The notes under the pieces were generated by a model. That model had not been told where the DNA came from. It made no database searches and worked only from the letters and a program-made list of their open reading frames with translations. A stretch of DNA of 64,000 nt from a virus: IMG/VR virus record IMGVR_UViG_3300045911_000602. The stretch is one strand, 5' to 3'. This document shows, piece after piece, positions 15,779 through 27,683 of the stretch. The translations under genes were made by a program, and so were the position numbers. Position 1 is the stretch's first letter. Every line of letters begins with the position of its first letter.

Positions 15779-15813
15779 GGCACCTGTCCCTGTCTTGCTA
15801 AATTATGTTCAGC

Positions 15814-15841
15814 ATTATACAGGGATCTCATTTAAAGAGAA
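15814..15841 (-). promoter_or_regulatory. MORN promoter cassette with a weaker -35: TTCTCT, 16-nt spacer, TATAAT
   Basis: -10 at 15814-15819 and -35 at 15836-15841. Confidence 0.5.
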
Positions 15842-16544
15842 GTGGGTTTTGACTAAACTTTTCAATCAAGTGTTGTTTTTGTTCTTTGCTGAGTTTCAAC
15901 TTCTTCAACCATTCATTAAAGGAAAGTTTAACATTATCCAAGTACCAATAAATGGATCCATCAGAGTTGATAACAGCAGGTCCATCTTCGCGGTGAAGGT
16001 TTCCATTCAGGTACCACACTTCGGAACCATCATTATACACAATCGCAGGTCCATCTTCGCGATGGAGTTTTCCATTCAAATACCAGAACTTAGAACCATT
16101 GCTATAGATAATTGCAGGTCCATCTTCCCGATGGAGTTTCCCGTTCAAGTACCATTCTTCGAAACGGTTTCTATAGACAACTGCAGGTCCATTTTCCCGA
16201 TGAAGCTTCCCGTGCAAGTACCAATACTTGGTACCATCACTATACACAATCGCAGGTCCATCTTCACGATGTCGTTGTCCATTCAAGTACCAGAACTTAG
16301 AACCATTGTCAATAATGGCAGGTCCATCTTCCCGATGAAGTTTTCCGTTCAAATACCAATGCTCATTACCGTTACGATACACAATCGCGGGTCCATCTTC
16401 ACGATGAAGTTCCCCGTTCAAGTACCAGATCTGAGAACCATTGCTATAGATAGCTGCAGGTCCATCCTCACGATGAAGTTTTCCATTCAAATACCAGTAC
16501 TGATCGCCTTTCGAATTTACAACGTATTCAATCTCAGTGTTCAT
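15828..16544 (-). CDS. MORN-repeat protein, paralog 5 (8 repeats, variant tail ending NPLLFK)
   Basis: Start moved to the conserved MNTEI ATG at 16544. Confidence 0.85.
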   Translation of the reverse strand: MNTEIEYVVNSKGDQYWYLNGKLHREDGPAAIYSNGSQIWYLNGELHREDGPAIVYRNGNEHWYLNGKLHREDGPAIIDNGSKFWYLNGQRHREDGPAIVYSDGTKYWYLHGKLHRENGPAVVYRNRFEEWYLNGKLHREDGPAIIYSNGSKFWYLNGKLHREDGPAIVYNDGSEVWYLNGNLHREDGPAVINSDGSIYWYLDNVKLSFNEWLKKLKLSKEQKQHLIEKFSQNPLLFK

Positions 16545-16579
16545 GGCATCTGTTCCTGTCTTAGCACACAAGATTGAGC

Positions 16580-16607
16580 ATTATACGGGGATTTGGGTAA
16601 AAGACAA
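16580..16607 (-). promoter_or_regulatory. MORN promoter cassette: TTGTCT, 16-nt spacer, TATAAT
   Basis: -10 at 16580-16585 and -35 at 16602-16607. Confidence 0.6.
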
Positions 16608-16645
16608 CTGCTTTACGATATCGTTTTCCGTTCGAGTATCAATAC

Positions 16646-16978
16646 TCAGCACCAATACTCAGTACCATCACTATGCACAATTGCAGGTCCATCTTCCCGA
16701 TGGAGCTTCCCGTTCACATACCAGAATTCTGAACCATCAGCATGGATAATAGCAGGTCCATCTTTCCGGTGGCGATGTCCATTCAGGTACCATTCTTTGG
16801 AACCATCAGCGTTGATAATAGCAGGTCCATCTTCACGGTGGTATCTCCCATGTTTGTACCATTCTTCAGTACCGTCAGCATAGATGACAGCAGGTCCATC
16901 TTCCCGATGGAGTTTTCCATTCAAGTACCAGAGTTGATTCCCATCGAAATTTACGATTCGTCGATTCGTGGTCTTCAT
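16646..16978 (-). pseudogene. 3'-truncated MORN paralog 6 (4 repeats, no C-terminal tail)
   Basis: The ORF stops inside a repeat, right after a 13-nt direct duplication CAATACTCAG(C/T)AC on the plus strand at about 16652-16677. The out-of-frame repeat remnant is fused directly to the next promoter cassette. Confidence 0.55.
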
Positions 16979-17013
16979 GGCATCTGTTCCTGTCTTGTTA
17001 AATTATGTTCAGC

Positions 17014-17041
17014 ATTATACAGGTATTTAGTTAAAAGACAA
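17014..17041 (-). promoter_or_regulatory. MORN promoter cassette: TTGTCT, 16-nt spacer, TATAAT
   Basis: -10 at 17014-17019 and -35 at 17036-17041. Confidence 0.6.
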
Positions 17042-17047
17042 CTGCTT

Positions 17048-17401
17048 TTAACTAAACTTCAGAATCATATGTAGTTTTTCTTCTTCGCTAATTTTCAGCT
17101 TTTTCAACCATTGATCAAAACTGTATTCAACACCATTCAAGAACCATTCACGTGTCCCATCAGCATTGATAACAGCAGGTCCATCCTCACGATGAAGGTT
17201 CCCATTCAAGTACCAGAACTGAGAACCATCATCGAGAATAGCTGCAGGTCCGTCTTCGCGATGAAATTTCCCGTGCTTGTACCAACGTTCAACACCGTCA
17301 GCATAGATAACAGCAGGTCCGTCTTCGCGATGAAATTTTCCATTGAACAACCAATATTGATTGCCTTCAGAATCCACAACTGATTGAATCTCAGTATTCA
17401 T
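17048..17401 (-). CDS. MORN-repeat protein, paralog 7 (3 repeats plus tail)
   Basis: Start moved to the MNTEIQ ATG at 17401. Confidence 0.85.
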   Translation of the reverse strand: MNTEIQSVVDSEGNQYWLFNGKFHREDGPAVIYADGVERWYKHGKFHREDGPAAILDDGSQFWYLNGNLHREDGPAVINADGTREWFLNGVEYSFDQWLKKLKISEEEKLHMILKFS

Positions 17402-17436
17402 GGCATCTGTTCCTGTCTTGTTAAGCAATGTTCAGC

Positions 17437-17464
17437 ATTATACAGGGATTTGGGTAAAAGACAA
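17437..17464 (-). promoter_or_regulatory. MORN promoter cassette: TTGTCT, 16-nt spacer, TATAAT
   Basis: -10 at 17437-17442 and -35 at 17459-17464. Confidence 0.6.
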
Positions 17465-17470
17465 CTGCTT

Positions 17471-18100
17471 TTAACCAAACTTGAGAATCAAGTGCAGCTT
17501 CTCTTCTTTATTAGATTTGCTTTTCTCTAACCACTCATTAAAAGAAAGTTTAATATCGTTTAAAAACCACAACTTAGTACCATCTCTATGAACAATTGCA
17601 GGTCCATCTTCACGATGTCGTTTTCCGTGCTTGTACCAACGTTCAACACCGTTATCATAGATAACAGCAGGTCCATCTTCTCGGTGGAGTTTTCCGTTCA
17701 AATACCATTCTTCGGAACCATTGCTGTAGATAACAGCAGGTCCATCTTCACGATGTCGTTTTCCGTGCTTGTACCAACGTACAACACCGTTAGTATAGAT
17801 AACAGCAGGTCCATCTTCTCGGTGGAGTTTTCCATTCAAGTACCATTCTTGGTGACCATCATTGTGAATAACAGCAGGTCCATCTTCACGATGTCGTTGT
17901 CCATTCAAGTACCAACGTTGAGAACCATTGGTATAGATAATGGCAGGTCCATCTTCTCGGTGGAGTTTTCCATTCAAGTACCATTCTTGGTGACCATCGT
18001 TGAGAATAATAGCAGGTCCATCTTCACGATGGAGGTTCCCATTCAAGTACCAATATTGGTTTCCTACAGAATCCACAACTGATTGAATCTTAGCATTCAT
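17471..18100 (-). CDS. MORN-repeat protein, paralog 8 (7 repeats plus tail)
   Basis: Start moved to the MNAKIQ ATG at 18100. Confidence 0.85.
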   Translation of the reverse strand: MNAKIQSVVDSVGNQYWYLNGNLHREDGPAIILNDGHQEWYLNGKLHREDGPAIIYTNGSQRWYLNGQRHREDGPAVIHNDGHQEWYLNGKLHREDGPAVIYTNGVVRWYKHGKRHREDGPAVIYSNGSEEWYLNGKLHREDGPAVIYDNGVERWYKHGKRHREDGPAIVHRDGTKLWFLNDIKLSFNEWLEKSKSNKEEKLHLILKFG

Positions 18101-18135
18101 GGCATCTGTTCCTGTCTTGTTAAGCAATGTTGAGC

Positions 18136-18163
18136 ATTATACAGGGATTTGGGTAAAAGACAA
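18136..18163 (-). promoter_or_regulatory. MORN promoter cassette: TTGTCT, 16-nt spacer, TATAAT
   Basis: -10 at 18136-18141 and -35 at 18158-18163. Confidence 0.6.
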
Positions 18164-18186
18164 CTGCTTTTAACCAAATTACAATT

Positions 18187-18672
18187 TCAAACATCATCGT
18201 TAACTTTTCTTACTTCACGAATTGTAATTGATTTTTTTGAAATTCGGTTTGCCTTCCTGGCAGCCATACCATGCAAACTCCTTAGAGCCTTTGAAGAAGC
18301 CTCATATGTGCGGCGATAATACTTACCGTCTTGGCGACTTACGTAATATGCGAATACTTCAAACTTCTGTGGCTTTTCAAGAAAAAAGAATTCGGAAATC
18401 AAAGCTTCCAGATGTTCTTCGAATTCTTCGTTCGTATTAAACGCAGCCCGATCGCTTTCCAACCACTTTTCTACATCATCATGCGTCCTATACCCAATGC
18501 AACCATCCTGCAGAGCAATCGAAAGCTTCATCACGTCCCACTTATCGAAAATCATGATTGCTTCCATGTGATTCAGCATCCAATAAATATCTTCGTCCAC
18601 TGGATTGGATTTTGTTACTTCAGCGACCTTTGTCTTGAAAAACTCGAAGGTATATTTCATTGATTCGCTCAT
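18187..18672 (-). CDS. hypothetical protein (161 aa), non-MORN gene inside the array
   Basis: ORF with its own promoter. Confidence 0.7.
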   Translation of the reverse strand: MSESMKYTFEFFKTKVAEVTKSNPVDEDIYWMLNHMEAIMIFDKWDVMKLSIALQDGCIGYRTHDDVEKWLESDRAAFNTNEEFEEHLEALISEFFFLEKPQKFEVFAYYVSRQDGKYYRRTYEASSKALRSLHGMAARKANRISKKSITIREVRKVNDDV

Positions 18673-18693
18673 TTATTAATGAATTGAAACCGA

Positions 18694-18722
18694 ATTATAC
18701 ATATCCAACACTATAATGTCAA
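18694..18722 (-). promoter_or_regulatory. sigma70-type promoter: TTGACA, 17-nt spacer, TATAAT
   Basis: -10 at 18694-18699 and -35 at 18717-18722. Confidence 0.6.
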
Positions 18723-18729
18723 CAACTTT

Positions 18730-18805
18730 TGGCGCCCCTGGCAGGAATCGAACCCACACCTAAACGGGTAGAAGCCGTTCGCTCTTTCCATTAAGCTACA
18801 GGGGC
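18730..18805 (-). tRNA. tRNA-Arg(UCU), CCA encoded
   Basis: Folded by hand. Acceptor GCCCCUG/CAGGGGC; D stem GCUU/GAGC; anticodon arm AACGG-CUUCUAC-CCGUU; T-arm GUGGG-UUCGAUU-CCUGC. Confidence 0.9.
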
Positions 18806-18831
18806 GAAAAACTACATCAAACAATACCTCC

Positions 18832-18859
18832 ACTATACAGGAATTTGGGTAAATAACAA
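18832..18859 (-). promoter_or_regulatory. promoter cassette variant: TTGTTA, 16-nt spacer, TATAGT, upstream of tRNA-Arg
   Basis: -10 at 18832-18837 and -35 at 18854-18859. Confidence 0.5.
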
Positions 18860-18886
18860 CAGCTTTCAACCAAACTTCGGAATCAA

Positions 18887-19561
18887 TTAAAGTTTTTGTT
18901 TTTCGCTCAATTTTATTTGTTCCGACCATTGATCGAAAGTGAAATAGTCACCATCCAAGAACCAAAATTTACTAGTAACATCAAAAAAAACTGCAGGTCC
19001 ATCTTTCCGATGGAGTTTCCCATTCAAGTACCAGAACTTAAAACCGTTGCTATAGATAACGGCAGGTCCATCTTCACGATGAAGTTTTCCGTTCAAATAC
19101 CAATACTTAGAACCATCACTGCGAATAGCTGCAGGTCCATCTTTCCGATGGAGTTTCCCATTCAAGTACCATTCTTCGAGACCATTATTGCGAATAATGG
19201 CAGGTCCATCTTCACGATGTCGTTGTCCATTCAAGTACCATTCTTGTGTCCAATTAACGCAATTAACAGCGGGTCCATTTTCTCGATGGAGTTTTCCATT
19301 CAAGTACCAGTACTCTGAACCATCGCTATAAACAAGTGCAGGTCCATCCTCACGATGGTACTTTCCGTTCAGGAACCATTCTTGAAAACCATCACTATGC
19401 ACAATGGCAGGTCCGTCTTCCCGATGGAGCTTCCCGTCCTTATACCAACGTTCGGAACCATCAGCACCAATAATAGCAGGTCCATCTTCTCGGTGGAGAA
19501 CATCATTCATGTACCAGAACTGATTCCCTTTACGATCTACGCGTTGAATTCCAGCATTCAT
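18887..19561 (-). CDS. MORN-repeat protein, paralog 9 (8 repeats, slightly shortened tail)
   Basis: Start moved to the MNAGIQ ATG at 19561. Confidence 0.85.
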   Translation of the reverse strand: MNAGIQRVDRKGNQFWYMNDVLHREDGPAIIGADGSERWYKDGKLHREDGPAIVHSDGFQEWFLNGKYHREDGPALVYSDGSEYWYLNGKLHRENGPAVNCVNWTQEWYLNGQRHREDGPAIIRNNGLEEWYLNGKLHRKDGPAAIRSDGSKYWYLNGKLHREDGPAVIYSNGFKFWYLNGKLHRKDGPAVFFDVTSKFWFLDGDYFTFDQWSEQIKLSEKQKL

Positions 19562-19596
19562 GTGACATACTCCTGTCTTAGCACACAATATTGAGC

Positions 19597-19624
19597 ATTG
19601 TACAGGGATTTGAGTAAAAAACAA
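19597..19624 (-). promoter_or_regulatory. MORN promoter cassette variant: TTGTTT, 16-nt spacer, TACAAT
   Basis: -10 at 19597-19602 and -35 at 19619-19624. Confidence 0.5.
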
Positions 19625-19630
19625 CTGCTT

Positions 19631-20044
19631 TTAACCAAATTTCAGAATCAAGTGCAGCTTTTCTTCTTCGCTCAATTTCAGTTGTTCCAACCATTCGTTG
19701 AAGGCGAAATTGTCATCATGCAAGAACCAAAGTTTAGTACCATCGGCGTTAAAATAAGCAGGCCCATCTTCGCGGTGAAGCTCCCCATGCAGGTACCAAT
19801 ACTCTGAACCATCCATATAGGTAACAGCAGGTCCATTTTCACGATGGAGCTTTCCATGTTTATACCAATGTTTAGAACCACTAGCACCGATGACAGCAGG
19901 TCCGTCTTCGCGATGAAATTTTCCATTGAAGTACCATTCTTCAGGACCATGGCTGTAGATAGCGGCAGGTCCATCTTCTCGGTGGAGTTTTCCATTCAAG
20001 TACCAGAACTGATTTCCGTGGGCATCTACAATATGTCGTCTCAT
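19631..20044 (-). CDS. MORN-repeat protein, paralog 10 (4 repeats plus tail)
   Basis: Start moved to the MRRHIV ATG at 20044, which has an AGGTGA RBS. Confidence 0.8.
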   Translation of the reverse strand: MRRHIVDAHGNQFWYLNGKLHREDGPAAIYSHGPEEWYFNGKFHREDGPAVIGASGSKHWYKHGKLHRENGPAVTYMDGSEYWYLHGELHREDGPAYFNADGTKLWFLHDDNFAFNEWLEQLKLSEEEKLHLILKFG

Positions 20045-20083
20045 GGTATTCGTATCACCTGTTCTTGTCATACAACGTTGAGC

Positions 20084-20111
20084 ATTATAGAGGAATTTGG
20101 CTAAATAACAA
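20084..20111 (-). promoter_or_regulatory. MORN promoter cassette variant: TTGTTA, 16-nt spacer, TATAAT
   Basis: -10 at 20084-20089 and -35 at 20106-20111. Confidence 0.55.
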
Positions 20112-20117
20112 CCGCTT

Positions 20118-20738
20118 TTAACCAAATTTCAGAATCAAGTGCAGTTTTTCCTCTTCGCTCAATTTTATTTGTTCCAACCATTCTTTGAAAGTGAACTCAA
20201 CATCATTCAAGTACCATTCTTTAGTACCAGTAGCACTGATAATAGCAGGTCCATCTTCCCGGTGTCGTTTTCCGTTCAAATACCAGAACTGAGAACCATT
20301 GCTATGGATAACAGCAGGTCCATCTTCCCGGTGTCGTTTTCCGTTCACATACCAGAACTTAGAACCATTGCTATAGATAACAGCGGGTCCATCTTCGCGA
20401 TGAAATTTTCCATTCAAGTACCATTCTTCAGTACCATTACTATCAATAATGGCAGGTCCATCTTCCCGGTGTCGCTTTCCATTCAGGAACCATTCTACGG
20501 AACCCTCAGCAAAAACAACCGCAGGTCCATCTTCACGATGAAGTTTTCCGTGTTTGTACCAATATTTAGGACCATCAACATTGATAACTGCAGGTCCATC
20601 TTCACGGTGAAGTTTTCCGTTGAAGTACCATTCTTCGGAACCATCACTATGCACAATGGCAGGTCCATCTTCCCGGTGTCGTTTTCCGTTCAAGTACCAG
20701 AACTGATTCCCCTTATGATCTACAACACGTCGTCTCAT
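20118..20738 (-). CDS. MORN-repeat protein, paralog 11 (7 repeats plus tail)
   Basis: Start moved to the MRRRVV ATG at 20738. Confidence 0.8.
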   Translation of the reverse strand: MRRRVVDHKGNQFWYLNGKRHREDGPAIVHSDGSEEWYFNGKLHREDGPAVINVDGPKYWYKHGKLHREDGPAVVFAEGSVEWFLNGKRHREDGPAIIDSNGTEEWYLNGKFHREDGPAVIYSNGSKFWYVNGKRHREDGPAVIHSNGSQFWYLNGKRHREDGPAIISATGTKEWYLNDVEFTFKEWLEQIKLSEEEKLHLILKFG

Positions 20739-20777
20739 GGTATTCATATCACCTGTTCTTGTCATACAATGTTGAGC

Positions 20778-20805
20778 ATTATAGAGGAATTTGGCTAAAT
20801 AACAA
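20778..20805 (-). promoter_or_regulatory. MORN promoter cassette variant: TTGTTA, 16-nt spacer, TATAAT
   Basis: -10 at 20778-20783 and -35 at 20800-20805. Confidence 0.55.
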
Positions 20806-21089
20806 CCGCTTTTAACCCCCCATACAAATCATCTGTTGATCAATTACCCAATTTCACATACAATGCTGCTCATCTACAGAGAGCACCATAAGAGTGCAAC
20901 TGGATGCTAAGAGCCAAACCATGGCGGAGGCAGGGGGGAGCTATGGTTCTAATCCAAACCTGGACAAAATAACCATTTTCAAAAAAGTCAACAAAAAAAT
21001 AATGTTGTCATAATGTTTGTTTGTATTTTTCCAAATCTCGTTTTCTTGTATTATGGACACCATAAAATGAAGGATATAACAGCTTTCGC

Positions 21090-21156
21090 ATAAATCAATA
21101 AGTTAACAATATTTGTTAACAAACTTCCTTAACATACTCCCTATAGGTGCCTATAC
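21090..21156. repeat. 67-bp direct repeat, copy A, containing the 19-bp palindrome GTTAACAATATTTGTTAAC (21102-21120)
   Basis: Identical to 21209-21275; period 119 bp. Confidence 0.9.
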
Positions 21157-21208
21157 ATATCTACAACAAAATCAACAAATACATTAACATAAAAAACACA
21201 TGTTCTTT

Positions 21209-21275
21209 ATAAATCAATAAGTTAACAATATTTGTTAACAAACTTCCTTAACATACTCCCTATAGGTGCCTATAC
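21209..21275. repeat. 67-bp direct repeat, copy B (palindrome at 21221-21239)
   Basis: Identical to 21090-21156. Confidence 0.9.
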
Positions 21276-21299
21276 TTAATAGAAGCTTACACTATTTCA

Positions 21300-21449
21300 T
21301 TAATTAGTAGACAATGCGAATAACTTTTTTACTGCTGCTACAGTATAATCTGCTGTATAAAGACTTATTAACAATGTCATGCTAACAATGACAAGAACAA
21401 AAGTAAAAACAACTTCCCACGGGCTAAATAAACGAATATTTTTCATCAT
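21300..21449 (-). CDS. small membrane protein candidate (49 aa)
   Basis: Hand-translated: MMKNIRLFSPWEVVFTFVLVIVSMTLLISLYTADYTVAAVKKLFALSTN. An AAGGAT RBS sits 5 nt upstream. Confidence 0.35.
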   Translation of the reverse strand: MMKNIRLFSPWEVVFTFVLVIVSMTLLISLYTADYTVAAVKKLFALSTN

Positions 21450-21562
21450 GAAAATCCTTTAAAAATAAAGTGTTGATATAAAAATATTATTATGATTGTT
21501 CGTCTGAAGGTATGAAGGTATGAACAGCAATATGATTATCAAAACATAAATTTTATATTGAT

Positions 21563-21756
21563 ATTTACTAGTAAACAGTTTTATAAGTATGTTCTCGCAC
21601 GGGAAAGCTGTTATTTACTAGTAAACATTACAGAAATATTCTCGCACGGGAAATTATTTATATTGTTGTTATTATTTATTTTAAATATTTTCCGTGCGAA
21701 AAAATTGTTGGTTTGTTGCACGGGAAATTTAATTTTTCCTTCAAAACCCGCACGAA
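21563..21756. promoter_or_regulatory. iteron cluster. The 12-15-nt palindromic box ATTTACTAGTAAACA occurs twice, 50 bp apart. The CGCACGG(G)AAA core occurs 4-5 times, one copy inverted.
   Basis: Palindromic boxes at 21563-21577 and 21613-21627. Cores at 21592-21606, 21639-21653, 21688-21701 (inverted), 21716-21727 and 21748-21756 (degenerate). Confidence 0.6.
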
Positions 21757-22012
21757 TTCACGAAATTTCGCCCAATATTAATCACAATACCAAAGAAACG
21801 TCACAGCCTAGCAATGAATTTTCTATTGATAAATCAATAGTTTATAAGAACTTTTTCAATGTTTTTTATCAATATTTTCATTACTAACCTGATTAGGTTG
21901 ATCAATATATTTTTAAGGGTTTTTACACTATACATTGTATTTATTATAGTTGTTAGTCTACGGAAATTTAATTTGTAAATAGTTGTAACCATACGGTAAA
22001 GGAAAAGATTTT

Positions 22013-22537
22013 ATGTTATCTCAAATCCCAAAAAGAAATGTTGTAATGTCTCTTCATCATTATAGGCTGAATGAGTTTACTTTACATGAAAGTAATGTTG
22101 TAGGAAAGGAGATATGGTATCTTGATAATAATAATAAGAGGGTTGAATTTGTTGTTGATAATGTTTATAGAATTGATGTTGATTGTGTGAAAGAATATTT
22201 GCCTTCTAAGGTATTATGGTCAAGGAAGGATGATACTTTTCATTTGATTTATTATACGAATGATGAGTTTTTACCAAGACCTTTTGCTGGGGAGGAGAAT
22301 GTATATTGTTTTTATGTAAGGTGTTGTTCTCATAATATGGTATTACAATATGATGGACGTGTGCAGAAGTTATTTTTAGATCAGACTATTGCTGGTGAAG
22401 ATATTTGTTATATGTTTTTTGTTGGTGAGAGCGATTATCAATACTTGATGAGAGGTGATTTGAAAGAGAGTGTGAGTGAGGTGTGGAATGGGCTTGATGA
22501 ATGTTTGACAAAGTTATCTGAGTTATCAAGAAGATAG
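22013..22537 (+). CDS. hypothetical protein (174 aa)
   Basis: ORF with a GGTAAAGGAAAAG RBS region. It is the first plus-strand gene after the non-coding hub. Confidence 0.65.
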   Translation: MLSQIPKRNVVMSLHHYRLNEFTLHESNVVGKEIWYLDNNNKRVEFVVDNVYRIDVDCVKEYLPSKVLWSRKDDTFHLIYYTNDEFLPRPFAGEENVYCFYVRCCSHNMVLQYDGRVQKLFLDQTIAGEDICYMFFVGESDYQYLMRGDLKESVSEVWNGLDECLTKLSELSRR

Positions 22538-22975
22538 AGTTGTTTTTTCATGTGATTTTTCATGTTTGGTTTTTATGATGTTGTAAATATTAGGATAAAT
22601 TTTATTTACATATTGTGCAAAGAATTGTGGAATGTTGTAAACAATAAGAAACCAGGTAGAAAAGATAAATGATGTGATGAAAAATTGATATTGTGGTTCG
22701 GGGTCTGGAATGTGAAAAGTTACAAGGTAAATAACGATATAAATCCAATATGTAAGGAAAAATACGGATGCATGAAAAAATGTTTGGATTCGTTTTTCAT
22801 AATGTTGGAATTTCGCTAGTAATGATGGGTGTTCATCAAGTAGTGTGGAATTTTTTTGCAAAACTTTTCTGATATTTTTGAAATTGTTTGTATAAAGGGA
22901 ACGGATGTAAAAATGTCCATTAAGAAAATGGATTGTGATCCCAATAATTGCAAGAACGATCAGGATGTCTTTCAT
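22526..22975 (-). CDS. multi-pass membrane protein (149 aa)
   Basis: Three or four hydrophobic segments. Confidence 0.65.
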   Translation of the reverse strand: MKDILIVLAIIGITIHFLNGHFYIRSLYTNNFKNIRKVLQKNSTLLDEHPSLLAKFQHYEKRIQTFFHASVFFLTYWIYIVIYLVTFHIPDPEPQYQFFITSFIFSTWFLIVYNIPQFFAQYVNKIYPNIYNIIKTKHEKSHEKTTLSS

Positions 22976-22976
22976 A

Positions 22977-23168
22977 TTATAGGACCTTTATGACATTATC
23001 ATGCTTGATTGTATGACGTGTAGATAAATAATACCAGTATCCGCTTTGGTTGTGAATTACTTTGAGTATCTTACCACGAACTTCTTGTGGTTGTCCACCT
23101 GTACATGCACAGGTTTTTATTTTTGCTAGTACTTGATCGCCTTCCTTTAGAGGATGATTTATAATCAT
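22977..23168 (-). CDS. hypothetical protein (63 aa)
   Basis: ORF abuts 22526..22975. Confidence 0.55.
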   Translation of the reverse strand: MIINHPLKEGDQVLAKIKTCACTGGQPQEVRGKILKVIHNQSGYWYYLSTRHTIKHDNVIKVL

Positions 23169-23356
23169 TTTGTTTTACTCCTGTAAAACGTATTCTACAT
23201 CACTTGTAGAAGATTTTGCAAATGGTGTTTTGTGTGTAGTCCCCTATATTTATGGACGATAAATTCGGGGAACAAGATTAATGTTGAAAATCAGGTGAAA
23301 ATGGTGAGCGAATTATCATGAATTCGCTCACCCTATTGTTAACCGCTTCTTGATCT

Positions 23357-24376
23357 TTACTTCATCATTGTGTGTTCAACAAGACTTTTCCAATCGTCCC
23401 CAAGTTTGTAAAGAGAACATACTTGTTTTAGAGCACGAAGGGAGAGTTCACGAAAACGCGGTTGATTTTCAAATACAAACTGAAGAATCTCTTCCCCTTC
23501 TTCCTTTGTCAACTGTTCATCCTTGCACATGCTGTTTGTAAAAATATCACGAATCCGAAGAGTACGGGCGCGCTGAGAGGAGAGCGTTAGGTCAAGATAA
23601 ATTGACCGAGAGATCAGCGCTTGAAAATGTGGAGAACTTTTCCGATCTTCAAGTGCTTTGTCTGCCATGTTGATGTTTGTGATAAAAATAACACCTCCCT
23701 CAAACTCAAACTCGTTTGGAACCTTGTTGTCGGTGTTGATTACATAGTCTTGTTGTTGACGAGCATCATAAATCCATGTTGCTTGCTTCCTCCAAGAGAT
23801 TGTACGTGTGTTTGTGGAATCAAGAGCGCTTTTTAGAATATTGAACGCTTGTTCATCATTAAAAATACTGTCACAATCATCAAGAACAATAACTCCACCT
23901 TCACGAGCATGATAGAGAGCCTGATAAAGACCAGGAGCAGAACAAGTACCTTTGATAATGTGATAATAAAGATGATTTTCTTTGTGTGCTTTCTTTAGGG
24001 CACGCTCAATGTCATAGGTCTTACCAATACCAGGAGGACCATAAACAATCATTGATCGAATCTTTTGATTGAGCATCCCATTTACCATCCGGTTCATTAC
24101 ATCGAACTTTGCATTGACACGATCAAGAATTTGTTGATCGCTCAAATCATCATCTGCATTTTTTTGTTCAGTGCTGATCACTTCAGCAGAAATAGGTGCT
24201 CGATTTCCAGCAATCTGCGAAATAAGTGCATTATATTTGACAGGAATTTCAGCACTTTTTGAAAGTTGGTACACGCGCTGTTCTGAGAGCGAAAGAAGAC
24301 TTGCCATTTCCTTTTTCCATGCAGAACCAAACTTCAGCTGAGCAATTTCAGTAAATTCAGTACCGGAAATATTCAT
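23357..24376 (-). CDS. AAA+ ATPase with an N-terminal HTH-like region
   Basis: Walker A VYGPPGIGKT and Walker B VIVLDDCD. Track ORF (TTG start at 24496) trimmed to the ATG MNISGTEF, which has a GAGGAC RBS. Confidence 0.8.
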   Translation of the reverse strand: MNISGTEFTEIAQLKFGSAWKKEMASLLSLSEQRVYQLSKSAEIPVKYNALISQIAGNRAPISAEVISTEQKNADDDLSDQQILDRVNAKFDVMNRMVNGMLNQKIRSMIVYGPPGIGKTYDIERALKKAHKENHLYYHIIKGTCSAPGLYQALYHAREGGVIVLDDCDSIFNDEQAFNILKSALDSTNTRTISWRKQATWIYDARQQQDYVINTDNKVPNEFEFEGGVIFITNINMADKALEDRKSSPHFQALISRSIYLDLTLSSQRARTLRIRDIFTNSMCKDEQLTKEEGEEILQFVFENQPRFRELSLRALKQVCSLYKLGDDWKSLVEHTMMK

Positions 24377-24492
24377 CTGTAATGTCCTCGTTGAGATTCG
24401 TTGCCACATGCTTGCAACATGACGCACAGTATATCTGATTGATAAGCATGTGTCAACTGACAGATTTGAAGAAAAATATTTCTTGCGCCGAA

Positions 24493-24762
24493 TCAATATG
24501 AATATATAATAGATTGTTTAATCTTGACAGACTTTATCAGCTGAATATCATCAAGCTTGATAAGCTGATCATTTTCTGAACTATCCTCTGTTGTCAATAA
24601 AAACACATTTATTTTTGGATTTGGCTTCCCGCAGTCCGTGTCTTTGATTGTGTTGATTTGATAGCAGCGAGAACGATCGCCGGAAAGATCATGACAATCC
24701 ACAACTAGATATTGTGATTTTTTAATTTTTAAAACATCGCCTTTTGTCGGATACCTTTTCAT
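24493..24762 (-). CDS. hypothetical protein (89 aa)
   Basis: ORF only. Confidence 0.55.
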   Translation of the reverse strand: MKRYPTKGDVLKIKKSQYLVVDCHDLSGDRSRCYQINTIKDTDCGKPNPKINVFLLTTEDSSENDQLIKLDDIQLIKSVKIKQSIIYSY

Positions 24763-24793
24763 TGAACTTTCTTTCTTGAATGATTACATGAGA

Positions 24794-25048
24794 TCAACGG
24801 AATGGAATTTCTTTCACCGGTGTTTCTTCCGGCGAAAGGATTCTTTCAACAATAAACACATCATAAATTTTATCATCTTCTGGGTGCTTGATTTCTTCTA
24901 AAAAGAAATCTCCAAAACTATATCTCCAATACACAAACACTTCCCTTTCACCGTTCCAACGAGCAACGCTTGCATTACGACAGCTGCCTTGATAATATGC
25001 ACCATCAACGAGATCTTTTTTAGCAATTCTGCATGGAATATTTCTCAT
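24794..25048 (-). CDS. hypothetical protein (84 aa)
   Basis: ORF only. Confidence 0.6.
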   Translation of the reverse strand: MRNIPCRIAKKDLVDGAYYQGSCRNASVARWNGEREVFVYWRYSFGDFFLEEIKHPEDDKIYDVFIVERILSPEETPVKEIPFR

Positions 25049-25608
25049 TATGCCAGCCCTTCTTCAATGTATTTTTTGTACGGCTTCCTTGGTTGATAAG
25101 CAATAAGCTCAATACCAACCGCTTCATATGCTTTCTTCCAATTCCCGAAATCGCTTTTGTTCTTCCTTGTGTACTGATCAAGAAGACGATTTTCTTCTGC
25201 AGAAACAAGATGAACCATCCGAAACATATTCAACCAGCGAATAATGTAGCTTTTGTTGATCGGACGCTTTTTTTGCTTCTGACGCTTGACATAGTTAAGA
25301 ATGAATGTGCCAGCACCCTGGCGATTGTAATAATGTTCTTCGGTGGGATATTTTTGATCGCCTGAAGCAATGGCACGGATTGCTCCCTTGCTGATAAATC
25401 CGGATTTGATCACCGAAAGCTCATAAATGTCATTCCCAATACCTCTTGCTCGAGCAGAAAAACGCTTTTCGTTTTCCCAGACTTCGTTTGGAATGTTTTC
25501 AATTTTACAAAAAATTTGATCGATAAAATCAAGATCACGATCACAAAAAACAATTTCCATGATTGACTTTGCCTGAATTGAAAATTGATGGTGTGAACTA
25601 TCAAACAA
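25048..25608 (-). CDS. hypothetical protein (186 aa)
   Basis: ORF only. Confidence 0.65.
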   Translation of the reverse strand: MFDSSHHQFSIQAKSIMEIVFCDRDLDFIDQIFCKIENIPNEVWENEKRFSARARGIGNDIYELSVIKSGFISKGAIRAIASGDQKYPTEEHYYNRQGAGTFILNYVKRQKQKKRPINKSYIIRWLNMFRMVHLVSAEENRLLDQYTRKNKSDFGNWKKAYEAVGIELIAYQPRKPYKKYIEEGLA

Positions 25609-25621
25609 AATTCAATTGGGG

Positions 25622-26173
25622 TCAACGATTTTCATTTTTCCGATTTTCGGAATTTGTTTCATGTGAACTTGTAAGCGAACGAATGATTGTTTCCATTCTG
25701 TGATTAGCAAGAGTGGCAGCAATGTTCCAGATTTTACAAGCTTCATTATATGTTGCTACATGATCAGGATTATTTCTACTGAACACACTTTGATATAAAT
25801 TGATGAAATCGGTGTGATCTTTTGCAGCTGTAAGCAACCTTCCTTCAAGCTCACCAATATATTTTTGGTTCGCTTTCCAGTTTCCTACCGGGATTTCTTC
25901 ATCAAGAGAAAGCAAAATTTCTTTTGCTCTCTTATCAAGAGAATCTAACCAATAATAATAGTCAATTGAATCTTCGCTCCCTTGTTTTTTAGCAAAATCA
26001 AGAGATATGTGTTCTATATCTGTTGAATATTGTGTTTTTGCAATCCACCAACCGGTGTTCCAGTCAAGGTGGTCTCGCAGAGTTTGTTTGTAAGGATTTT
26101 CGGAACTTGCTAATCCTAGCAAGTAACTTTCGTGTCCTTCTCTTACTGCTTTTGATAAGAATTTTTGTTTCAT
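25622..26173 (-). CDS. hypothetical protein (183 aa)
   Basis: The palindrome TTTACTAGTAAA (26179-26190) sits just upstream of the start. Confidence 0.65.
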   Translation of the reverse strand: MKQKFLSKAVREGHESYLLGLASSENPYKQTLRDHLDWNTGWWIAKTQYSTDIEHISLDFAKKQGSEDSIDYYYWLDSLDKRAKEILLSLDEEIPVGNWKANQKYIGELEGRLLTAAKDHTDFINLYQSVFSRNNPDHVATYNEACKIWNIAATLANHRMETIIRSLTSSHETNSENRKNENR

Positions 26174-26240
26174 CGTTGTTTACTAGTAAAGATAAATCAC
26201 GAATAACTTATTTCTGAATTTGTGTACTTGACTACCAATA

Positions 26241-26510
26241 TTAACAAGACGACATTGCTTTTACTTTACGAACAGAAGTTGTATGAGGCTTCTGTGACGA
26301 ACTTAATAAAAAGTTTACTCTATCTGCAATTTTCTTGTCAACGGATAAACTGTAAAATTCTAGGCGCGCTTGTGGAGTCATACAAAGTTGTCCTTTTAAA
26401 CTATTTACATGAAGCAACCTGAGGAAATTCAAATAAACCTCGGGGTGAATTATTGCTCCCTTGTAAATATATTCTTGAATTTGTTCGGGTGATATGTTAT
26501 TAGGCTTCAT
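26241..26510 (-). CDS. hypothetical protein (89 aa)
   Basis: ORF only. Confidence 0.5.
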   Translation of the reverse strand: MKPNNISPEQIQEYIYKGAIIHPEVYLNFLRLLHVNSLKGQLCMTPQARLEFYSLSVDKKIADRVNFLLSSSQKPHTTSVRKVKAMSSC

Positions 26511-26530
26511 AATATATCACCCCTGTTAAT

Positions 26531-27325: not shown

Positions 27326-27362
27326 AATTTATCTACTCCGTTGTTTAATATATTTATTATTT

Positions 27363-27683
27363 TTAAGCAAAAATTGTTGAGAGTAGTTGTGATAGAGTGC
27401 CAGTTGAGATCGCTCCAGTTTTCGTTGAAACAATGTCATTGTCTTTAATGACAACTATTGAAGGAATACCACGAATATGATATTTTCGAGCAATGTCAGA
27501 ATACTGATCAATATCAATTTTTACAAAGTCGAGCATAGGAGTTTTCATTGATACTTCTTCGACACTAGGTGCAAATGTTTTACACGGACCACACCACTTT
27601 GCTGTAAAGTATAAAACAAGATTTTTTGAATTGTTTATAATTTTTTGTAATTCTTCCTGCGACTGTGGGACTACTAACATCAT
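27363..27683 (-). CDS. trxA: thioredoxin
   Basis: WCGPCK active site and a size of about 105 aa. Confidence 0.9.
   Translation of the reverse strand: MMLVVPQSQEELQKIINNSKNLVLYFTAKWCGPCKTFAPSVEEVSMKTPMLDFVKIDIDQYSDIARKYHIRGIPSIVVIKDNDIVSTKTGAISTGTLSQLLSTIFA

What the first reader, a model, noticed from the sequence alone, without database searches (positions are those of the whole stretch)
20766..22012. A 1.2-kb non-coding hub at the strand and composition switch, with perfect 67-bp repeats and an iteron cluster
This is the largest non-coding stretch in the window. It separates the higher-GC MORN block from the lower-GC block and sits at a divergent transcription point.

- A perfect 67-bp direct repeat occurs at 21090-21156 and 21209-21275. 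Each copy carries the 19-bp palindrome GTTAACAA-TAT-TTGTTAAC and the string CCTATAGGGAGTATG when read on the minus strand.
- Two 50-bp-spaced units each pair the palindromic box ATTTACTAGTAAACA with TTCTCGCACGGGAAA.
- Further direct and inverted copies of the CGCACGG(G)AAA core lie between 21592 and 21756.
- A G-rich-loop hairpin lies at 20917-20948.
- The palindrome TTTACTAGTAAA recurs at 26179-26190, in front of another gene.

Iterons next to AT-rich DNA and palindromic operators are the classic layout of a replication origin or a master regulatory region bound by one or two sequence-specific proteins.
Basis: seen in the sequence. Interest (0 to 1): 0.65.

Follow-up and report, generated by a model that had tools for sequence, protein, structure and literature searches.

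The report
Conserved early control region of a T4-like phage
The 1.2-kb gene-poor stretch is a real control region, kept at the same genomic position in an uncultured group of T4-like hot-spring phages, with back-to-back promoters and clusters of a 16-bp palindrome matching a known bacterial repressor (MarR/PchR) binding site; whether it also starts DNA replication is untested.

Summary
The region is not junk.

- **Conservation.** Five distant relatives (marker AAA-ATPase 52-55% identical, GC up to 47%) carry a 1.2-2.0 kb gene-poor region at the same syntenic position. It holds the same motifs: TACTAGTA 17 copies vs 0.6 expected, CGCACGG 10 vs 0.4, CCCCCCTGC 4 vs 0.
- **The palindrome.** The full site is TGTTTACTAGTAAACA. 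Its core fits the experimentally defined Bacillus subtilis PchR/YvmB (MarR-family) box GTTYMMYMGTAAAC. The exact 16-mer lies next to MarR genes in at least 11 Bacillales genomes. Single copies elsewhere sit just after -10-like hexamers, close upstream of start codons.
- **New parts.** These are a back-to-back sigma-70 promoter pair (conserved in 5 of 6 phages), a covarying hairpin, an invariant G-run block, a missed 49-aa membrane-protein ORF, and a PeSL-like promoter cassette that recurs before each MORN gene.
- **The "G-rich-loop hairpin"** is not conserved as a structure.

Best reading is an early transcriptional control hub. An origin role like T4 oriE, oriF or oriG is compatible but unsupported: there is no GC-skew switch and no initiator gene. 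A twofold depth step at the 67-bp repeats is unexplained.

The parts
20766..20817 (-). First copy of a ~50-nt early-promoter cassette: UP-like GGTTAAAAGC, then TTGTTA-16-TATAAT (20805-20778). It drives the first MORN gene, whose start is at 20765. I call it P_fwd.
   Evidence: BLAST of the region against the window, the alignment of 11 copies and a pattern scan finding 13 copies in front of genes between 13.3 and 20.8 kb. Promoter scan. Relatives have TTGAC(A/G/T)-17-GAT(A/G)AT at the same place.
20836..20864 (+). P_rev, a sigma-70-type promoter TTGATC-17-TACAAT. It sits back-to-back with P_fwd and fires rightwards into the gene-poor region.
   Evidence: Promoter scan. The same element (TTGACA or TTGACT, 17 nt, TATAAT or GATAAT) is at the homologous place in L004, L074, L115 and L117. 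Its hexamers are untouched by strain polymorphisms, which fall at 20857 and 20868 only.
20877..20902 (.). Small stem-loop with pairs 20877-79/20900-02 and 20883-86/20894-97, about 15-40 nt downstream of P_rev.
   Evidence: RNAalifold finds 5 of 7 pairs with compensatory changes. Pair counting gives 82.9% of cells paired vs 53% in shuffles, covariation score 0.66 vs 0.19 (0 of 500), and slid controls of 0.16 or less. Only 5 sequences, so this is suggestive.
20926..20947 (.). Conserved G-run block: plus strand GGAGGCAGGGGGGAGCTATGGT, minus strand ACCATAGCTCCCCCCTGCCTCC.
   Evidence: 20 of 22 bases identical to L004 18538-18559. CCCCCCTGC occurs once in 4 of 6 gene-poor regions and never in about 200 kb outside them. 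It is invariant in variant strains while the 5' stem arm is not. The fold is not exceptional.
21090..21156 (+). 67-bp repeat, copy A. Contains the palindrome GTTAACAA-TAT-TTGTTAAC (21102-21120) followed by promoter-like TTAACA-17-TATACA (21129-21157).
   Evidence: Nearly invariant in three variant strains. The 67-mer has about 7 times the word depth of the right flank.
21209..21275 (+). 67-bp repeat, copy B. Contains the palindrome at 21221-21239 and promoter-like TTAACA-17-TATACT (21248-21276). Public assemblies break here, and a twofold depth step sits here.
   Evidence: The Logan contig L002 starts at 21246. Depth data.
21300..21449 (-). ORF49, a small single-pass membrane protein gene with an AAAGGA Shine-Dalgarno sequence.
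   Evidence: Called in the JGI and Logan contigs. Translation. No frameshift or stop in three variant strains, and the N-terminal and membrane half is invariant. Small membrane-protein ORFs sit at the equivalent place in L074, L115 and L117 and are homologous to each other (E = 4e-8 and 0.003). No sequence similarity to ORF49 was detected.
21562..21577 (.). Palindromic operator 1, TATTTACTAGTAAACA (15 of 16 matches to TGTTTACTAGTAAACA).
   Evidence: Matches the PchR/YvmB box GTTYMMYMGTAAAC.
21612..21627 (.). Palindromic operator 2, TATTTACTAGTAAACA. The 47-bp unit 21592-21638 that contains it is absent from a variant strain.
   Evidence: The joint 21591>21639 is seen in run X7.
21592..21727 (.). 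Second motif family, (T)TCNCGCACGG(G/A)AA, at 21592-21606 (+), 21639-21653 (+), 21688-21702 (-) and 21713-21727 (+). The inverted pair brackets a very AT-rich core at 21654-21687. A degenerate copy lies at 21745-21756.
   Evidence: CGCACGG occurs 10 times in the gene-poor regions vs 0.41 expected. 21541-21746 shows no substitutions in strain X7, while the flanks differ by about 2-3%. The inverted repeat folds with z = -3.3. The degenerate copy is polymorphic at 21747, 21754 and 21760.
21922..21950 (+). Promoter-like TTTACA-17-TATAGT, 63 nt upstream of ORF174.
   Evidence: Promoter scan only.
22013..22537 (+). ORF174, the only rightward gene leaving the hub. It is a real gene of unknown function.
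   Evidence: A 98%-identical variant carries an in-frame 3-nt deletion. A 55%-identical homologue lies on the opposite strand at the same place in the 69% relative L007. No Pfam or PHROG match.
26177..26192 (-). Solitary operator copy, TCTTTACTAGTAAACA on the minus strand. It ends 3 nt before the ATG of gene 25622-26173 and directly follows a -10-like TTATCT.

Best explanation
The stretch is the early transcriptional control hub of an uncultured clade of T4-like hot-spring phages. It is not one element but several.

**Left edge.** Two sigma-70-type promoters stand back to back.
- P_fwd is the first of a series of PeSL-like promoter cassettes. It drives the MORN gene block leftwards.
- P_rev is conserved in 5 of 6 phages. 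It fires rightwards into the gene-poor DNA through a covarying hairpin and an invariant G-run block.

**Middle and right.**
- Two identical 67-bp units, each a stem-loop followed by a promoter-like site. They are present in more copies than the assembly shows.
- A small membrane-protein gene.
- An array of two binding-site families: the 16-bp palindrome TGTTTACTAGTAAACA, and (T)TCNCGCACGGGAA boxes that bracket an AT-rich core.

**Inferred mechanism.** A dimeric winged-helix repressor of the MarR/PchR type, encoded by the phage elsewhere in its genome or by the host, binds the palindromes. Solitary copies of the palindrome sit over the predicted transcription start of a few other genes. Binding would therefore switch the divergent early transcription units and that small regulon on or off together.

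**What is shown and what is inferred.** Shown: the sequence elements, their conservation, their synteny and their enrichment. Inferred: promoter activity, the identity of the binding proteins and the direction of regulation.
For: 1. **Synteny.** In relatives the order is AAA-ATPase, then a homologue of the window's 63-aa protein, then a membrane protein, then an opposite-strand block, then a 1.2-2.0 kb gene-poor region, then a same-strand block. The window has the same order.
2. **Motif enrichment** in six gene-poor regions compared with the rest of the same loci:
   - TACTAGTA 17 vs 0.59 expected (p = 2e-19)
   - CGCACGG 10 vs 0.41 (p = 3e-11)
   - CCCCCCTGC 4 vs 0
   - No full palindrome occurs in 268 kb of more distant T4-like loci.
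3. **Palindrome symmetry.** Half-sites vary symmetrically (TCTACTAGTAGA in L074). Positions 4 and 13 vary freely without compensation. This fits a dimeric protein site better than an RNA hairpin.
4. **Match to a proven operator.** The core GTTTACTAGTAAAC fits the EMSA-defined PchR/YvmB MarR box GTTYMMYMGTAAAC, which occurs three times in a divergent intergenic region in B. subtilis (PMC4992311). The exact 16-mer lies within 600 bp of a MarR-family gene in 11 of 71 bacterial loci holding it.
5. **Solitary copies** directly follow or overlap -10-like hexamers and lie 3-20 nt before start codons: window 26177, L006 1114, 3130 and 11957, L075 9264, L074 17295.
6. **Promoters.** P_rev and P_fwd are conserved as TTGAC(A/T)-17-(T/G)ATAAT-type promoters. 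Thirteen copies of the P_fwd cassette stand before MORN-block genes. This matches the PeSL description (PMC2839356, PMC4122927).
7. **Strain variants.** Variant strains leave the operator and box array, the 67-bp units and the promoter hexamers unchanged, while the spacers vary.
Against: - No MarR-like or other recognisable DNA-binding protein was found in the 64-kb window or in the relatives' 10-kb flanks. The HMM used was narrow.
- The host is unknown. T4-like phages of Bacillota, where the PchR box is known, have not been described.
- In the hub itself the palindromes are not in one fixed position relative to a convincing promoter. Only operator 1 fits neatly, in the spacer of TTGATA-18-TATAAG.
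- All promoters are consensus matches. The region's promoter-like count (12) is not above the shuffled expectation of 8.9 +/- 2.5.
- No RNA data exist.
- A purely regulatory role does not obviously explain why more than 1 kb is needed. It also does not explain the lineage-specific tandem iterons in relatives: 15-16-bp repeats in L115 and L117, and 10-bp-phased ACAGT in L117 and L075.
Confidence: 0.55

Rival explanations
1. The region is a replication origin of the T4 type, and this does not exclude the regulatory reading. Transcription from the conserved early promoter P_rev would run through the G-run into AT-rich DNA and prime leading-strand synthesis through a persistent RNA-DNA hybrid, as at T4 oriF and oriG. 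Alternatively or additionally, the repeated sites would bind an initiator, as proposed for the iterons of T4 oriE.
For: - T4 oriE has a cluster of direct repeats and depends on an early promoter. oriE, oriF and oriG lie at points of transcriptional divergence and compositional shift, and the oriE iterons are syntenic in close relatives (PMC3016281).
- Here a conserved strong promoter fires into non-coding DNA.
- An invariant G6 run lies 69-125 nt downstream of it in 4 of 5 phages.
- The window has AT-rich stretches (GC 0.27 over 21001-22000) and an AT-rich core bracketed by inverted boxes (z = -3.3).
- Relatives carry phased 10-bp and tandem 15-16-bp iterons.
- The region is conserved in position, which is unusual for phage non-coding DNA.
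Against: - Cumulative GC skew declines through the region. The only local reversal is the coding strand of ORF174.
- The 200 nt after P_rev have no marked G-over-C skew (0.03-0.14, and -0.12 in L074).
- No initiator, helicase-loader or Rep-like gene is adjacent.
- The palindrome also sits singly at ordinary gene starts, which is regulon behaviour.
- Depth shows a step, not a gradient.
- According to the review, T4 origins share no common motif and the role of the oriE iterons is itself unproven.
Confidence: 0.2
2. The region encodes one or more non-coding RNAs. One candidate is a small RNA starting at P_rev that carries the covarying 5' hairpin and the conserved GGAGGCAGGGGGGAG block, which resembles a Shine-Dalgarno sequence. 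Another is small RNAs made from the 67-bp units.
For: - A conserved promoter is followed by conserved sequence blocks and a hairpin with compensatory changes.
- The G-run block is invariant among strains and in 4 of 6 phages.
Against: - No Rfam family matches, even at E <= 10, in the window or the relatives.
- The consensus fold of the whole segment is weak on either strand (-5 kcal/mol).
- No terminator-like site is present (0 found).
- The local hairpin around the G-run is not conserved.
- The 67-bp unit folds no better than shuffles (z = -0.6 and -1.8).
- No RNA runs are available.
Confidence: 0.1
3. The 67-bp repeats mark a structural boundary of the genome. One version is the edge of a long direct terminal repeat holding the early MORN block, like the early-gene terminal repeats of SPO1 or T5, with nearby packaging signals. 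The other version is a recombination joint where two co-existing phage genomes, or an assembler, joined different modules.
For: - In runs X1 and X2, contigs identical to the window have word depth 87-101 (X1) and 109-119 (X2) over 45-13000, and 130 at 20788-21119. Over 21246-41000 the depth is only 43-47 (X1) and 52-60 (X2). The drop falls exactly at repeat B.
- GC content steps at the same place.
- Public assemblies break at the repeat.
- The 67-mer has about 7 times, and the 52-bp spacer about 3.5 times, the right-flank depth. The array or the unit is therefore more numerous than assembled.
- Window 45.4-64 kb is absent from X1 and X2 at 98% identity or more. Three different continuations are seen at 45341-45344, just after the repeated 417-aa ORF, so the source contig may follow a mixed path.
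- The window starts in a 20-bp tandem array with depth 276.
Against: - In the related strains of runs X7, X9 and X5, left and right flank depths are about equal: 44 vs 40, 10.7 vs 7.4, and 4.2 vs 3.6.
- Relatives keep the same hub between the same gene modules, which argues for a real, ancient junction.
- Contig word depths cannot separate terminal repeats from shared segments of mixed strains.
- Alternative junction contigs overlapping the window by only 30 nt would not have been displayed.
Confidence: 0.1
4. The region is decaying filler of a hyperplastic region, made of remnants of promoter cassettes and gene fragments with no collective function.
For: - It lies next to a tandem paralogue block full of repeated promoter cassettes.
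- There is copy-number variation: a 47-bp unit is lost in one strain.
- The 67-bp units resemble "empty" PeSL cassettes.
Against: - Three motif families and a promoter pair are conserved, at the same syntenic position, in phages whose marker protein is only 52-55% identical and whose GC content differs by 10 points.
- Core elements are invariant among strains.
Confidence: 0.03

Closest known systems
PchR/YvmB (MarR-family) operators in the yvmB-yvmC divergent intergenic region of Bacillus subtilis
   Same: - The 14-bp box GTTYMMYMGTAAAC is matched exactly by the phage core GTTTACTAGTAAAC.
- Both have dyad symmetry.
- Both have several boxes (three in B. subtilis, 2-4 per phage region) in a divergent promoter region, plus single boxes at a few other promoters (PMC4992311).
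- The exact phage 16-mer lies beside MarR genes in at least 11 Bacillales genomes.
   Different: - No MarR-family gene was found in the window or in the relatives' flanks.
- The host is unknown.
- The phage sites are paired with a second motif (CGCACGG boxes) that has no counterpart in the PchR system.
- Binding is untested.
PeSL (promoter-early stem-loop) regulatory cassettes of T4-type phages
   Same: - Near-identical ~50-100-bp cassettes carry a strong sigma-70-like promoter and an AT-rich upstream part.
- They are repeated before each small gene of a hyperplastic block (13 copies at 13.3-20.8 kb).
- The 67-bp unit has the order stem-loop then promoter.
- Repeat-associated indels and assembly joints occur, as expected for PeSL-mediated shuffling (PMC2839356, PMC4122927).
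   Different: - The 67-bp units are not followed by a Shine-Dalgarno sequence and a gene.
- Their stem is AT-rich and weak (-8 kcal/mol), unlike the polyG/polyC stems described for PeSLs.
- Terminator and promoter activity are untested.
- PeSLs do not account for the operator and box array or for the clade-wide conservation of the hub.
Bacteriophage T4 origins oriE (iterons plus early promoter) and oriF/oriG (promoter plus unwinding element, R-loop primed)
   Same: - The phage is T4-like.
- The region sits at a point of local transcriptional divergence and compositional change.
- It has repeated short sites.
- An early-type promoter reads into non-coding, partly AT-rich DNA.
- The repeats are syntenic in relatives (PMC3016281).
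   Different: [quoted passage not shown]
- No repEA/repEB-like genes were recognised.
- There is no GC-skew switch.
- No replication data exist.
Phage early/late switch regions with multiple regulator sites between divergent promoters (for example phi29 p4/p6 at A2b-A2c/A3). This comparison is from my own knowledge and was not tested here.
   Same: A compact region with back-to-back promoters and several copies of an inverted-repeat protein site controls divergent transcription units.
   Different: - The region here is five to eight times longer.
- It contains a small gene and extra repeat families.
- The regulator is unknown.

Membership tests
MarR/PchR-type operator | Sequence fits the experimentally defined box GTTYMMYMGTAAAC and has dyad symmetry | tested here: met
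   GTTTACTAGTAAAC fits every position. The full site is the 16-bp perfect palindrome TGTTTACTAGTAAACA, and variants change symmetrically.
MarR/PchR-type operator | Site overlaps or abuts promoter elements or the transcription start of the regulated gene | tested here: inconclusive
   Six solitary or last-in-array sites directly follow -10-like hexamers and lie 3-20 nt before ATG. The promoters are consensus guesses only, and no transcription-start data exist.
MarR/PchR-type operator | A cognate MarR-family (winged-helix) regulator is encoded by the phage or the host | tested here: not met
   An HMM built from 11 MarR proteins that neighbour the exact 16-mer found nothing (best E = 2) among all ORFs of the window and nine clade loci. 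Pfam and PHROG gave nothing for the flanking genes. The rest of the phage genome and the host could not be examined.
MarR/PchR-type operator | Protein binding to the site | not testable with these tools
   Needs EMSA, DAP-seq or a pull-down.
Iteron-type replication origin (plasmid, lambda or T4 oriE style) | Three or more initiator-binding repeats, regularly spaced | tested here: inconclusive
   There are 2-4 palindromes per region at irregular spacing of 29-275 bp. Relatives, but not the window, have phased 10-bp ACAGT and tandem 15-16-bp repeats.
Iteron-type replication origin (plasmid, lambda or T4 oriE style) | Adjacent AT-rich unwinding element | tested here: inconclusive
   The window has an AT-rich core at 21654-21687 and GC 0.27 over 21001-22000. 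This was not evaluated in the GC-richer relatives.
Iteron-type replication origin (plasmid, lambda or T4 oriE style) | Initiator (Rep, O or RepEB-like) gene next to the repeats | tested here: not met
   The neighbouring genes are MORN-repeat proteins, an orphan (ORF174), membrane proteins, a 63-aa conserved protein with a CxC motif that has no family match, and an AAA-ATPase of phrog_1250. None has a recognisable initiator domain.
Iteron-type replication origin (plasmid, lambda or T4 oriE style) | Strand-compositional (GC-skew) switch at the site | tested here: not met
   Cumulative GC skew falls from 0 to -2.39 up to 22 kb, rises only across ORF174, then keeps falling.
Iteron-type replication origin (plasmid, lambda or T4 oriE style) | Replication initiates there | not testable with these tools
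   Only assembled contigs with flat word depth are available. They show a step, not a peak.
PeSL cassette (T4-type phages) | Strong sigma-70-like promoter with an AT-rich upstream part, repeated as a near-identical cassette before many small genes of a hyperplastic region, ending in a Shine-Dalgarno sequence and a start codon | tested here: met
   This holds for the 20766-20817 cassette family: 13 copies, 83% mean column identity, and each is followed by a gene start.
PeSL cassette (T4-type phages) | Stable stem-loop adjacent to the promoter that acts as a terminator | tested here: inconclusive
   The 67-bp unit has an 8-bp AT-rich stem before its promoter-like site (-8 kcal/mol, z = -1.8). 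No terminator-like site was scored. The stem-loop was not examined in the MORN cassettes.
T7-type (single-subunit RNA polymerase) promoter, suggested by CCTATAGGGAG | A phage single-subunit RNA polymerase gene, and many copies of the promoter | tested here: not met
   The motif occurs only inside the two repeats. The longest ORF in the window is 502 aa, a helicase. The phage is T4-like and uses sigma-70-type promoters. The rest of the genome was not seen.
Described non-coding RNA family (Rfam) | Covariance-model match | tested here: not met
   Only tRNAs reach the gathering score in the window. Nothing credible appears at E <= 10 in the region. Nothing appears in the relatives.

The most novel reading that the evidence does not exclude
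A whole clade of uncultured T4-like phages keeps a kilobase-scale cis-acting "command region". In it a MarR/PchR-type repressor, possibly the host's own metabolite-sensing regulator, gates the divergent early transcription units through an operator array. The same region, through the conserved promoter that reads into a G-run and AT-rich or iteron DNA, would serve as the transcription-primed replication origin or as the boundary of a long early-gene terminal repeat. Neither a dedicated conserved control and origin region nor the use of MarR-box operators has been described for T4-like phages, as far as my literature searches and my own knowledge go.
Probability: 0.15. Interest if true: 0.75.

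Novelty: new variant of a known kind. Interest (0 to 1): 0.5.

Why it matters
- **A departure from the T4 picture.** T4-like phages are thought to control early genes with scattered host-type promoters and to have origins that share no common motifs. Here a lineage keeps one long, syntenic, motif-rich control region. That gives a concrete, testable handle on how these uncultured large phages time early expression and perhaps start replication.
- **An immediate experiment.** The match of the palindrome to a proven MarR-family operator points to a specific test: find the binding protein, whether phage or host. It also hints at the host or at phage use of a host sensor.
- **Practical markers.** The motif set TGTNTACTAGTANACA, CGCACGG and CCATASCTCCCCCCTGC (S = C or G), together with the back-to-back promoter pair, can be used to recognise this region, and this phage clade, in metagenomes.

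Tried and rejected
- **Close DNA relatives.** None in the phage collection. IMG/VR had no relatives of the AAA-ATPase and no copies of the 67-bp unit or the C-rich block.
- **IMG/VR scan for two TACTAGTAAA copies.** It returned 66 loci, but none co-occur with GCACGGGA nearby. Most look like unrelated repeats.
- **The single metagenome scan.** The patterns chosen were the generic Walker motifs, so it gave only short or more distant loci without the motifs. These served as a negative control only.
- **Rfam.** Nothing at gathering or permissive thresholds.
- **tRNA or tmRNA-like element.** I suspected one by eye in L004 near 18750. ARAGORN finds none.
- **T7-like promoter reading of CCTATAGGGAG.** Rejected; see the membership test.
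- **Palindrome as an RNA hairpin or translational operator.** Disfavoured, because positions 4 and 13 vary without compensation.
- **Long-range pairing of the C-run with the G-run upstream of P_fwd.** RNAalifold predicts it, but the fold is weak at -5 kcal/mol.
- **Homology of ORF49 to the relatives' small membrane ORFs.** Not detectable.
- **Function of the conserved 63-aa neighbour and of ORF174.** No family match.
- **RNA-seq evidence.** No runs available.
- **Marker-frequency analysis.** Only flat contig depths are available. They revealed a twofold step rather than an origin peak.
- **Literature search for the palindrome sequence itself.** Only unrelated primers were found.


Full report
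**1. What the window is**

The flanking genes identify a distant T4-like phage.
- The 379-aa AAA-ATPase at 23357-24496 (minus strand) belongs to phrog_1250. It hits about 1,300 T4-type phages at no more than 41% identity.
- The window also encodes T4-type RNA ligase 1, an NAD-dependent DNA ligase, a DEAD-box helicase, TnpB-like proteins and nine scattered tRNAs.
- The same DNA occurs in hot-spring and microbial-mat metagenomes.
- No close relative exists in the phage collection or in IMG/VR.

**2.

- The 67-bp repeat is perfect.
- Its 19-bp palindrome is far above chance. The minus-strand string occurs only in the two repeat copies.
- TTTACTAGTAAA is far above chance, as is CGCACGGGAAA.
- GC content steps from about 0.42 to about 0.33 at the region.
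- It is the largest gene-poor stretch in the window.

Three corrections are needed.
- A 49-aa membrane ORF with a Shine-Dalgarno sequence lies at 21300-21449 on the minus strand. It is called in two independent assemblies.
- The strand switch is local, because only ORF174 points rightwards. ORF174 is a real gene. It has a 98% variant with an in-frame deletion, and a 55% homologue in the same opposite-strand position in a relative.
- The G-rich-loop hairpin is thermodynamically ordinary, and the 5' arm of its stem is rewritten in variant strains.

**3. The left 50 bp is an ordinary promoter cassette**

- BLAST of the region against the window shows that 20766-20817 is one copy of a cassette: GGTTAAAAGC, then TTGTCT/TTGTTA, 16 nt, then TGTATAAT.
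- The cassette precedes 13 genes of the MORN paralogue block between 13.3 and 20.8 kb.
- This matches the published description of PeSL cassettes in T4-type phages: strong sigma-70-like promoters with an AT-rich upstream part, repeated before small genes of hyperplastic regions (PMC2839356, PMC4122927).

**4. The region is conserved in distant relatives. This is the key result.**

Homologues of the AAA-ATPase at 52-55% identity lie on long metagenomic contigs. In L004/L005, L074, L075, L115 and L117 the gene order is:
1. AAA-ATPase
2. a homologue of the window's 63-aa protein
3. a membrane protein
4. a variable block on the opposite strand (absent in L075, where the gene-poor region follows the membrane protein directly)
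5. a gene-poor region of 1.2-2.0 kb
6. small genes on the AAA strand

The window has the same order: AAA-ATPase, 63-aa protein, 149-aa membrane protein, ORF174 on the opposite strand, the region, then the MORN block.

These regions are 40-47% GC and hardly alignable to the window overall (42% column identity). Yet they hold the same elements.
- **Palindrome clusters.** There are 2-4 copies of TnTACTAGTAnA per region.
- **CGCACGG boxes** in either orientation.
- **Enrichment against the rest of the same loci**:

| Motif | Copies in the six regions | Expected |
|---|---|---|
| TACTAGTA | 17 | 0.59 |
| CGCACGG | 10 | 0.41 |
| GCACGG | 20 | 2.8 |
| CCCCCCTGC | 4 | 0 |

- **Negative control.** 268 kb of more distant T4-like loci hold no full palindrome.
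- **A small membrane-protein ORF** lies inside the region in L074, L115 and L117. These three are homologous to each other. ORF49 occupies the same relative place in the window.

**5. A conserved back-to-back promoter pair, a hairpin and a G-run**

Aligning the gene-proximal 200-400 nt of the regions reveals several features.
- The apparent inverted repeat TGTCAAC...GTTGAC is in fact the two -35 hexamers of divergent promoters.
- P_fwd is TTGAC(A/G/T)-17-GAT(A/G)AT in the relatives and TTGTTA-16-TATAAT in the window.
- P_rev is TTGACA or TTGACT, 17 nt, then TATAAT or GATAAT in the relatives, and TTGATC-17-TACAAT at 20836-20864 in the window.
- P_rev is present in 5 of 6 phages and reads into the gene-poor DNA.
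- About 15-40 nt downstream of P_rev lies a stem-loop (window 20877-20902) whose sequence differs but whose pairing is kept. Five of 7 pairs show compensatory changes. 82.9% of cells are paired vs 53% in shuffles, the covariation score is 0.66 vs 0.19 (0 of 500 shuffles), and slid controls give 0.16 or less. With five sequences this is suggestive, not proof.
- 69-125 nt downstream comes the invariant block GCAGGGGGGAG(G/C)TATGG.
- No consensus fold of the whole segment is convincing on either strand.

**6. What the palindrome is**

- The full site is the 16-bp perfect palindrome TGTTTACTAGTAAACA. Variants change both halves symmetrically (TCTACTAGTAGA), or vary at positions 4 and 13 without compensation. 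This pattern fits a dimeric DNA-binding protein rather than an RNA hairpin.
- A scan of 185,579 reference genomes for the exact 16-mer gave 71 loci, many of them in Bacillaceae and Paenibacillaceae.
- In Bacillus spizizenii the site lies between the cyclodipeptide synthase gene and a MarR-family gene. In Paenibacillus two copies flank a MarR gene.
- In 11 loci a homologous MarR gene lies within 600 bp of the site.
- The B. subtilis regulator at this locus, PchR/YvmB, has an EMSA-defined box GTTYMMYMGTAAAC. Three boxes lie in its divergent intergenic region and single boxes lie at a few other promoters (PMC4992311). The phage core GTTTACTAGTAAAC fits this consensus at every position.
- In the phages, solitary copies directly follow or overlap -10-like hexamers and lie 3-20 nt upstream of start codons. 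Examples are window 26177, L006 1114 (after TTGACA-17-TATAGT), L006 3130 and 11957, L075 9264 and L074 17295. That is the usual position of a repressor operator.
- No MarR-like gene was found in the window or in the relatives' flanks, though the model used was narrow. The binding protein and its source therefore remain unknown.

**7. The 67-bp repeats**

- On the plus strand each unit has a stem-loop (8-bp arms) followed by TTAACA-17-TATAC(A/T). That is the PeSL order, but no gene follows.
- The units are almost invariant in three variant strains. They are lineage-specific: relatives have other repeat families at the equivalent place.
- In the de Bruijn contigs of runs X1 and X2 the 67-mer has about 7 times, and the 52-bp spacer about 3.5 times, the depth of the right flank. 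The 119-bp unit is therefore more numerous than assembled, or it is dispersed elsewhere in the genome.

**8. Strain-level variation**

Three variant populations (runs X7, X9, X10) differ from the window by about 2-10% in the flanks. Their differences fall as follows.
- **Invariant:** the P_rev hexamers, the G-run, the cores of the 67-bp units, the N-terminal half of ORF49 with its upstream region, and 21541-21746, which is the operator and box array.
- **Exception within the array:** one variant lacks exactly one 47-bp unit (joint 21591>21639).
- **Polymorphic:** the degenerate fifth box at 21745-21756.

**9. Origin or not**

- The T4 literature makes an origin plausible. oriE has clustered direct repeats and depends on an early promoter. 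oriE, oriF and oriG lie at transcriptional divergence points with compositional shifts. oriF and oriG are primed by a promoter-derived R-loop (PMC3016281). P_rev with its G-run and AT-rich DNA, the inverted boxes around an AT-rich core (z = -3.3) and the relatives' phased iterons fit that picture.
- The tests I could run do not support it. There is no GC-skew switch, no marked G-over-C skew downstream of P_rev and no initiator gene. The palindrome also behaves like a regulon operator.
- I therefore rank the regulatory hub first at 0.55 and an origin role, which is not exclusive, at 0.2.

**10. An unexplained depth and composition step**

- In X1 and X2, contigs 100% identical to the window have about twice the depth to the left of the repeats: 87-130 against 43-47 in X1.
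- The change falls at repeat B, where GC content also steps and where assemblies break.
- Related strains in other runs do not show the step.
- Window 45.4-64 kb is missing from X1 and X2 at 98% identity or more. It follows a multi-copy 417-aa TnpB-like element.
- Possible explanations are a long terminal repeat boundary, two co-existing genomes sharing the left module (PeSL-type shuffling), or a mixed assembly path. Contig-level data cannot decide among them.

**11. Verdict**

It is best described as a conserved early control region: divergent promoters, an operator array, PeSL-like cassettes and one small gene. The palindromic sites are of the MarR/PchR operator type. It is a new variant of known kinds of phage regulatory DNA. 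The origin or terminus roles are open, and specific experiments could settle them.

Noticed in passing
window 13266-20850: A tandem block of about a dozen MORN/DUF6745-like paralogous genes. Each is preceded by the same ~50-nt sigma-70-type promoter cassette (13 copies), and the C-terminal coding ends upstream of each cassette are also conserved. This is a PeSL-like hyperplastic block of higher GC (about 0.40-0.44) than the rest of the window.
   Followed up: partly
window 33963-35216 and 44046-45299; also 36631-37875: Two 417-aa ORFs on the plus strand are 92% identical to each other and have no Pfam match, but carry RuvC-like motifs (IDMNPN, AYSSTIGN). Their word depth is raised about 2-3-fold, and several different continuations are seen at 45341-45344. 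They look like a multi-copy TnpB-like mobile element. A canonical IS605-type TnpB (OrfB_IS605 plus the Cas12f1-like TNB domain) lies between them.
   Followed up: partly
window 1-53: The window starts inside a tandem array of a 20-bp unit (AATGTTTTTGTTATGTGATC, about 2.5 copies). Its unitig depth is about 276-430, against about 100 for the adjoining DNA. The JGI contig and the Logan contigs break at the same place.
   Followed up: no
window 45428-64000: No contig of runs X1 or X2 matches this part at 98% identity or more, although 1-45.3 kb is present at 100%. A JGI contig carrying the region is only 44,147 bp long. The window's source contig may follow a different strain or a mixed path after the repeated element.
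   Followed up: no
window 45-13000 versus 21246-41000: A twofold difference in contig word depth in two runs of one sample (87-101 vs 43-47 in X1; 109-119 vs 52-60 in X2). The change falls at the 67-bp repeats and coincides with the GC step. Three other runs with related strains do not show it.
   Followed up: partly
L115 19858-19970; L117 19225-19256 and 18601-18635; L075 15131-15156; L004 17738-17810: The relatives' gene-poor regions carry their own iteron families. These are 15-bp tandem GCCGNNGTCCAAAATGCCG-type repeats in L115, 16-bp GCCGTTTGGCCGCT in L117, and ACAGT/ACTGT pentamers phased every 10-11 bp. ACTGT occurs 57 times vs 15.6 expected. The window lacks them.
   Followed up: partly
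window 22977-23168 (-) and homologues in L004, L007, L074, L075, L115, L117: A 63-68-aa protein is conserved throughout the clade (invariant HPL, CxC, KVI-N-G-WY-L) and always lies a few kb from the gene-poor region. It has no Pfam or PHROG match and is followed by a membrane/coiled-coil protein. Its function is unknown, and it was not tested as a DNA binder.
   Followed up: partly
window 21591/21639 (run X7) and 21163 (run X9): A variant strain lacks exactly one 47-bp operator-plus-box unit. A low-depth contig in another run diverges completely to the left of 21163, inside the spacer between the 67-bp repeats. Both point to recombination at the repeats.
   Followed up: partly
window 9621-52266: Nine tRNA genes, all on the minus strand, are scattered singly or in small groups rather than in one cluster. 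They are Leu x2, Arg x2, Ser x2, Gly x2 and Trp.
   Followed up: no
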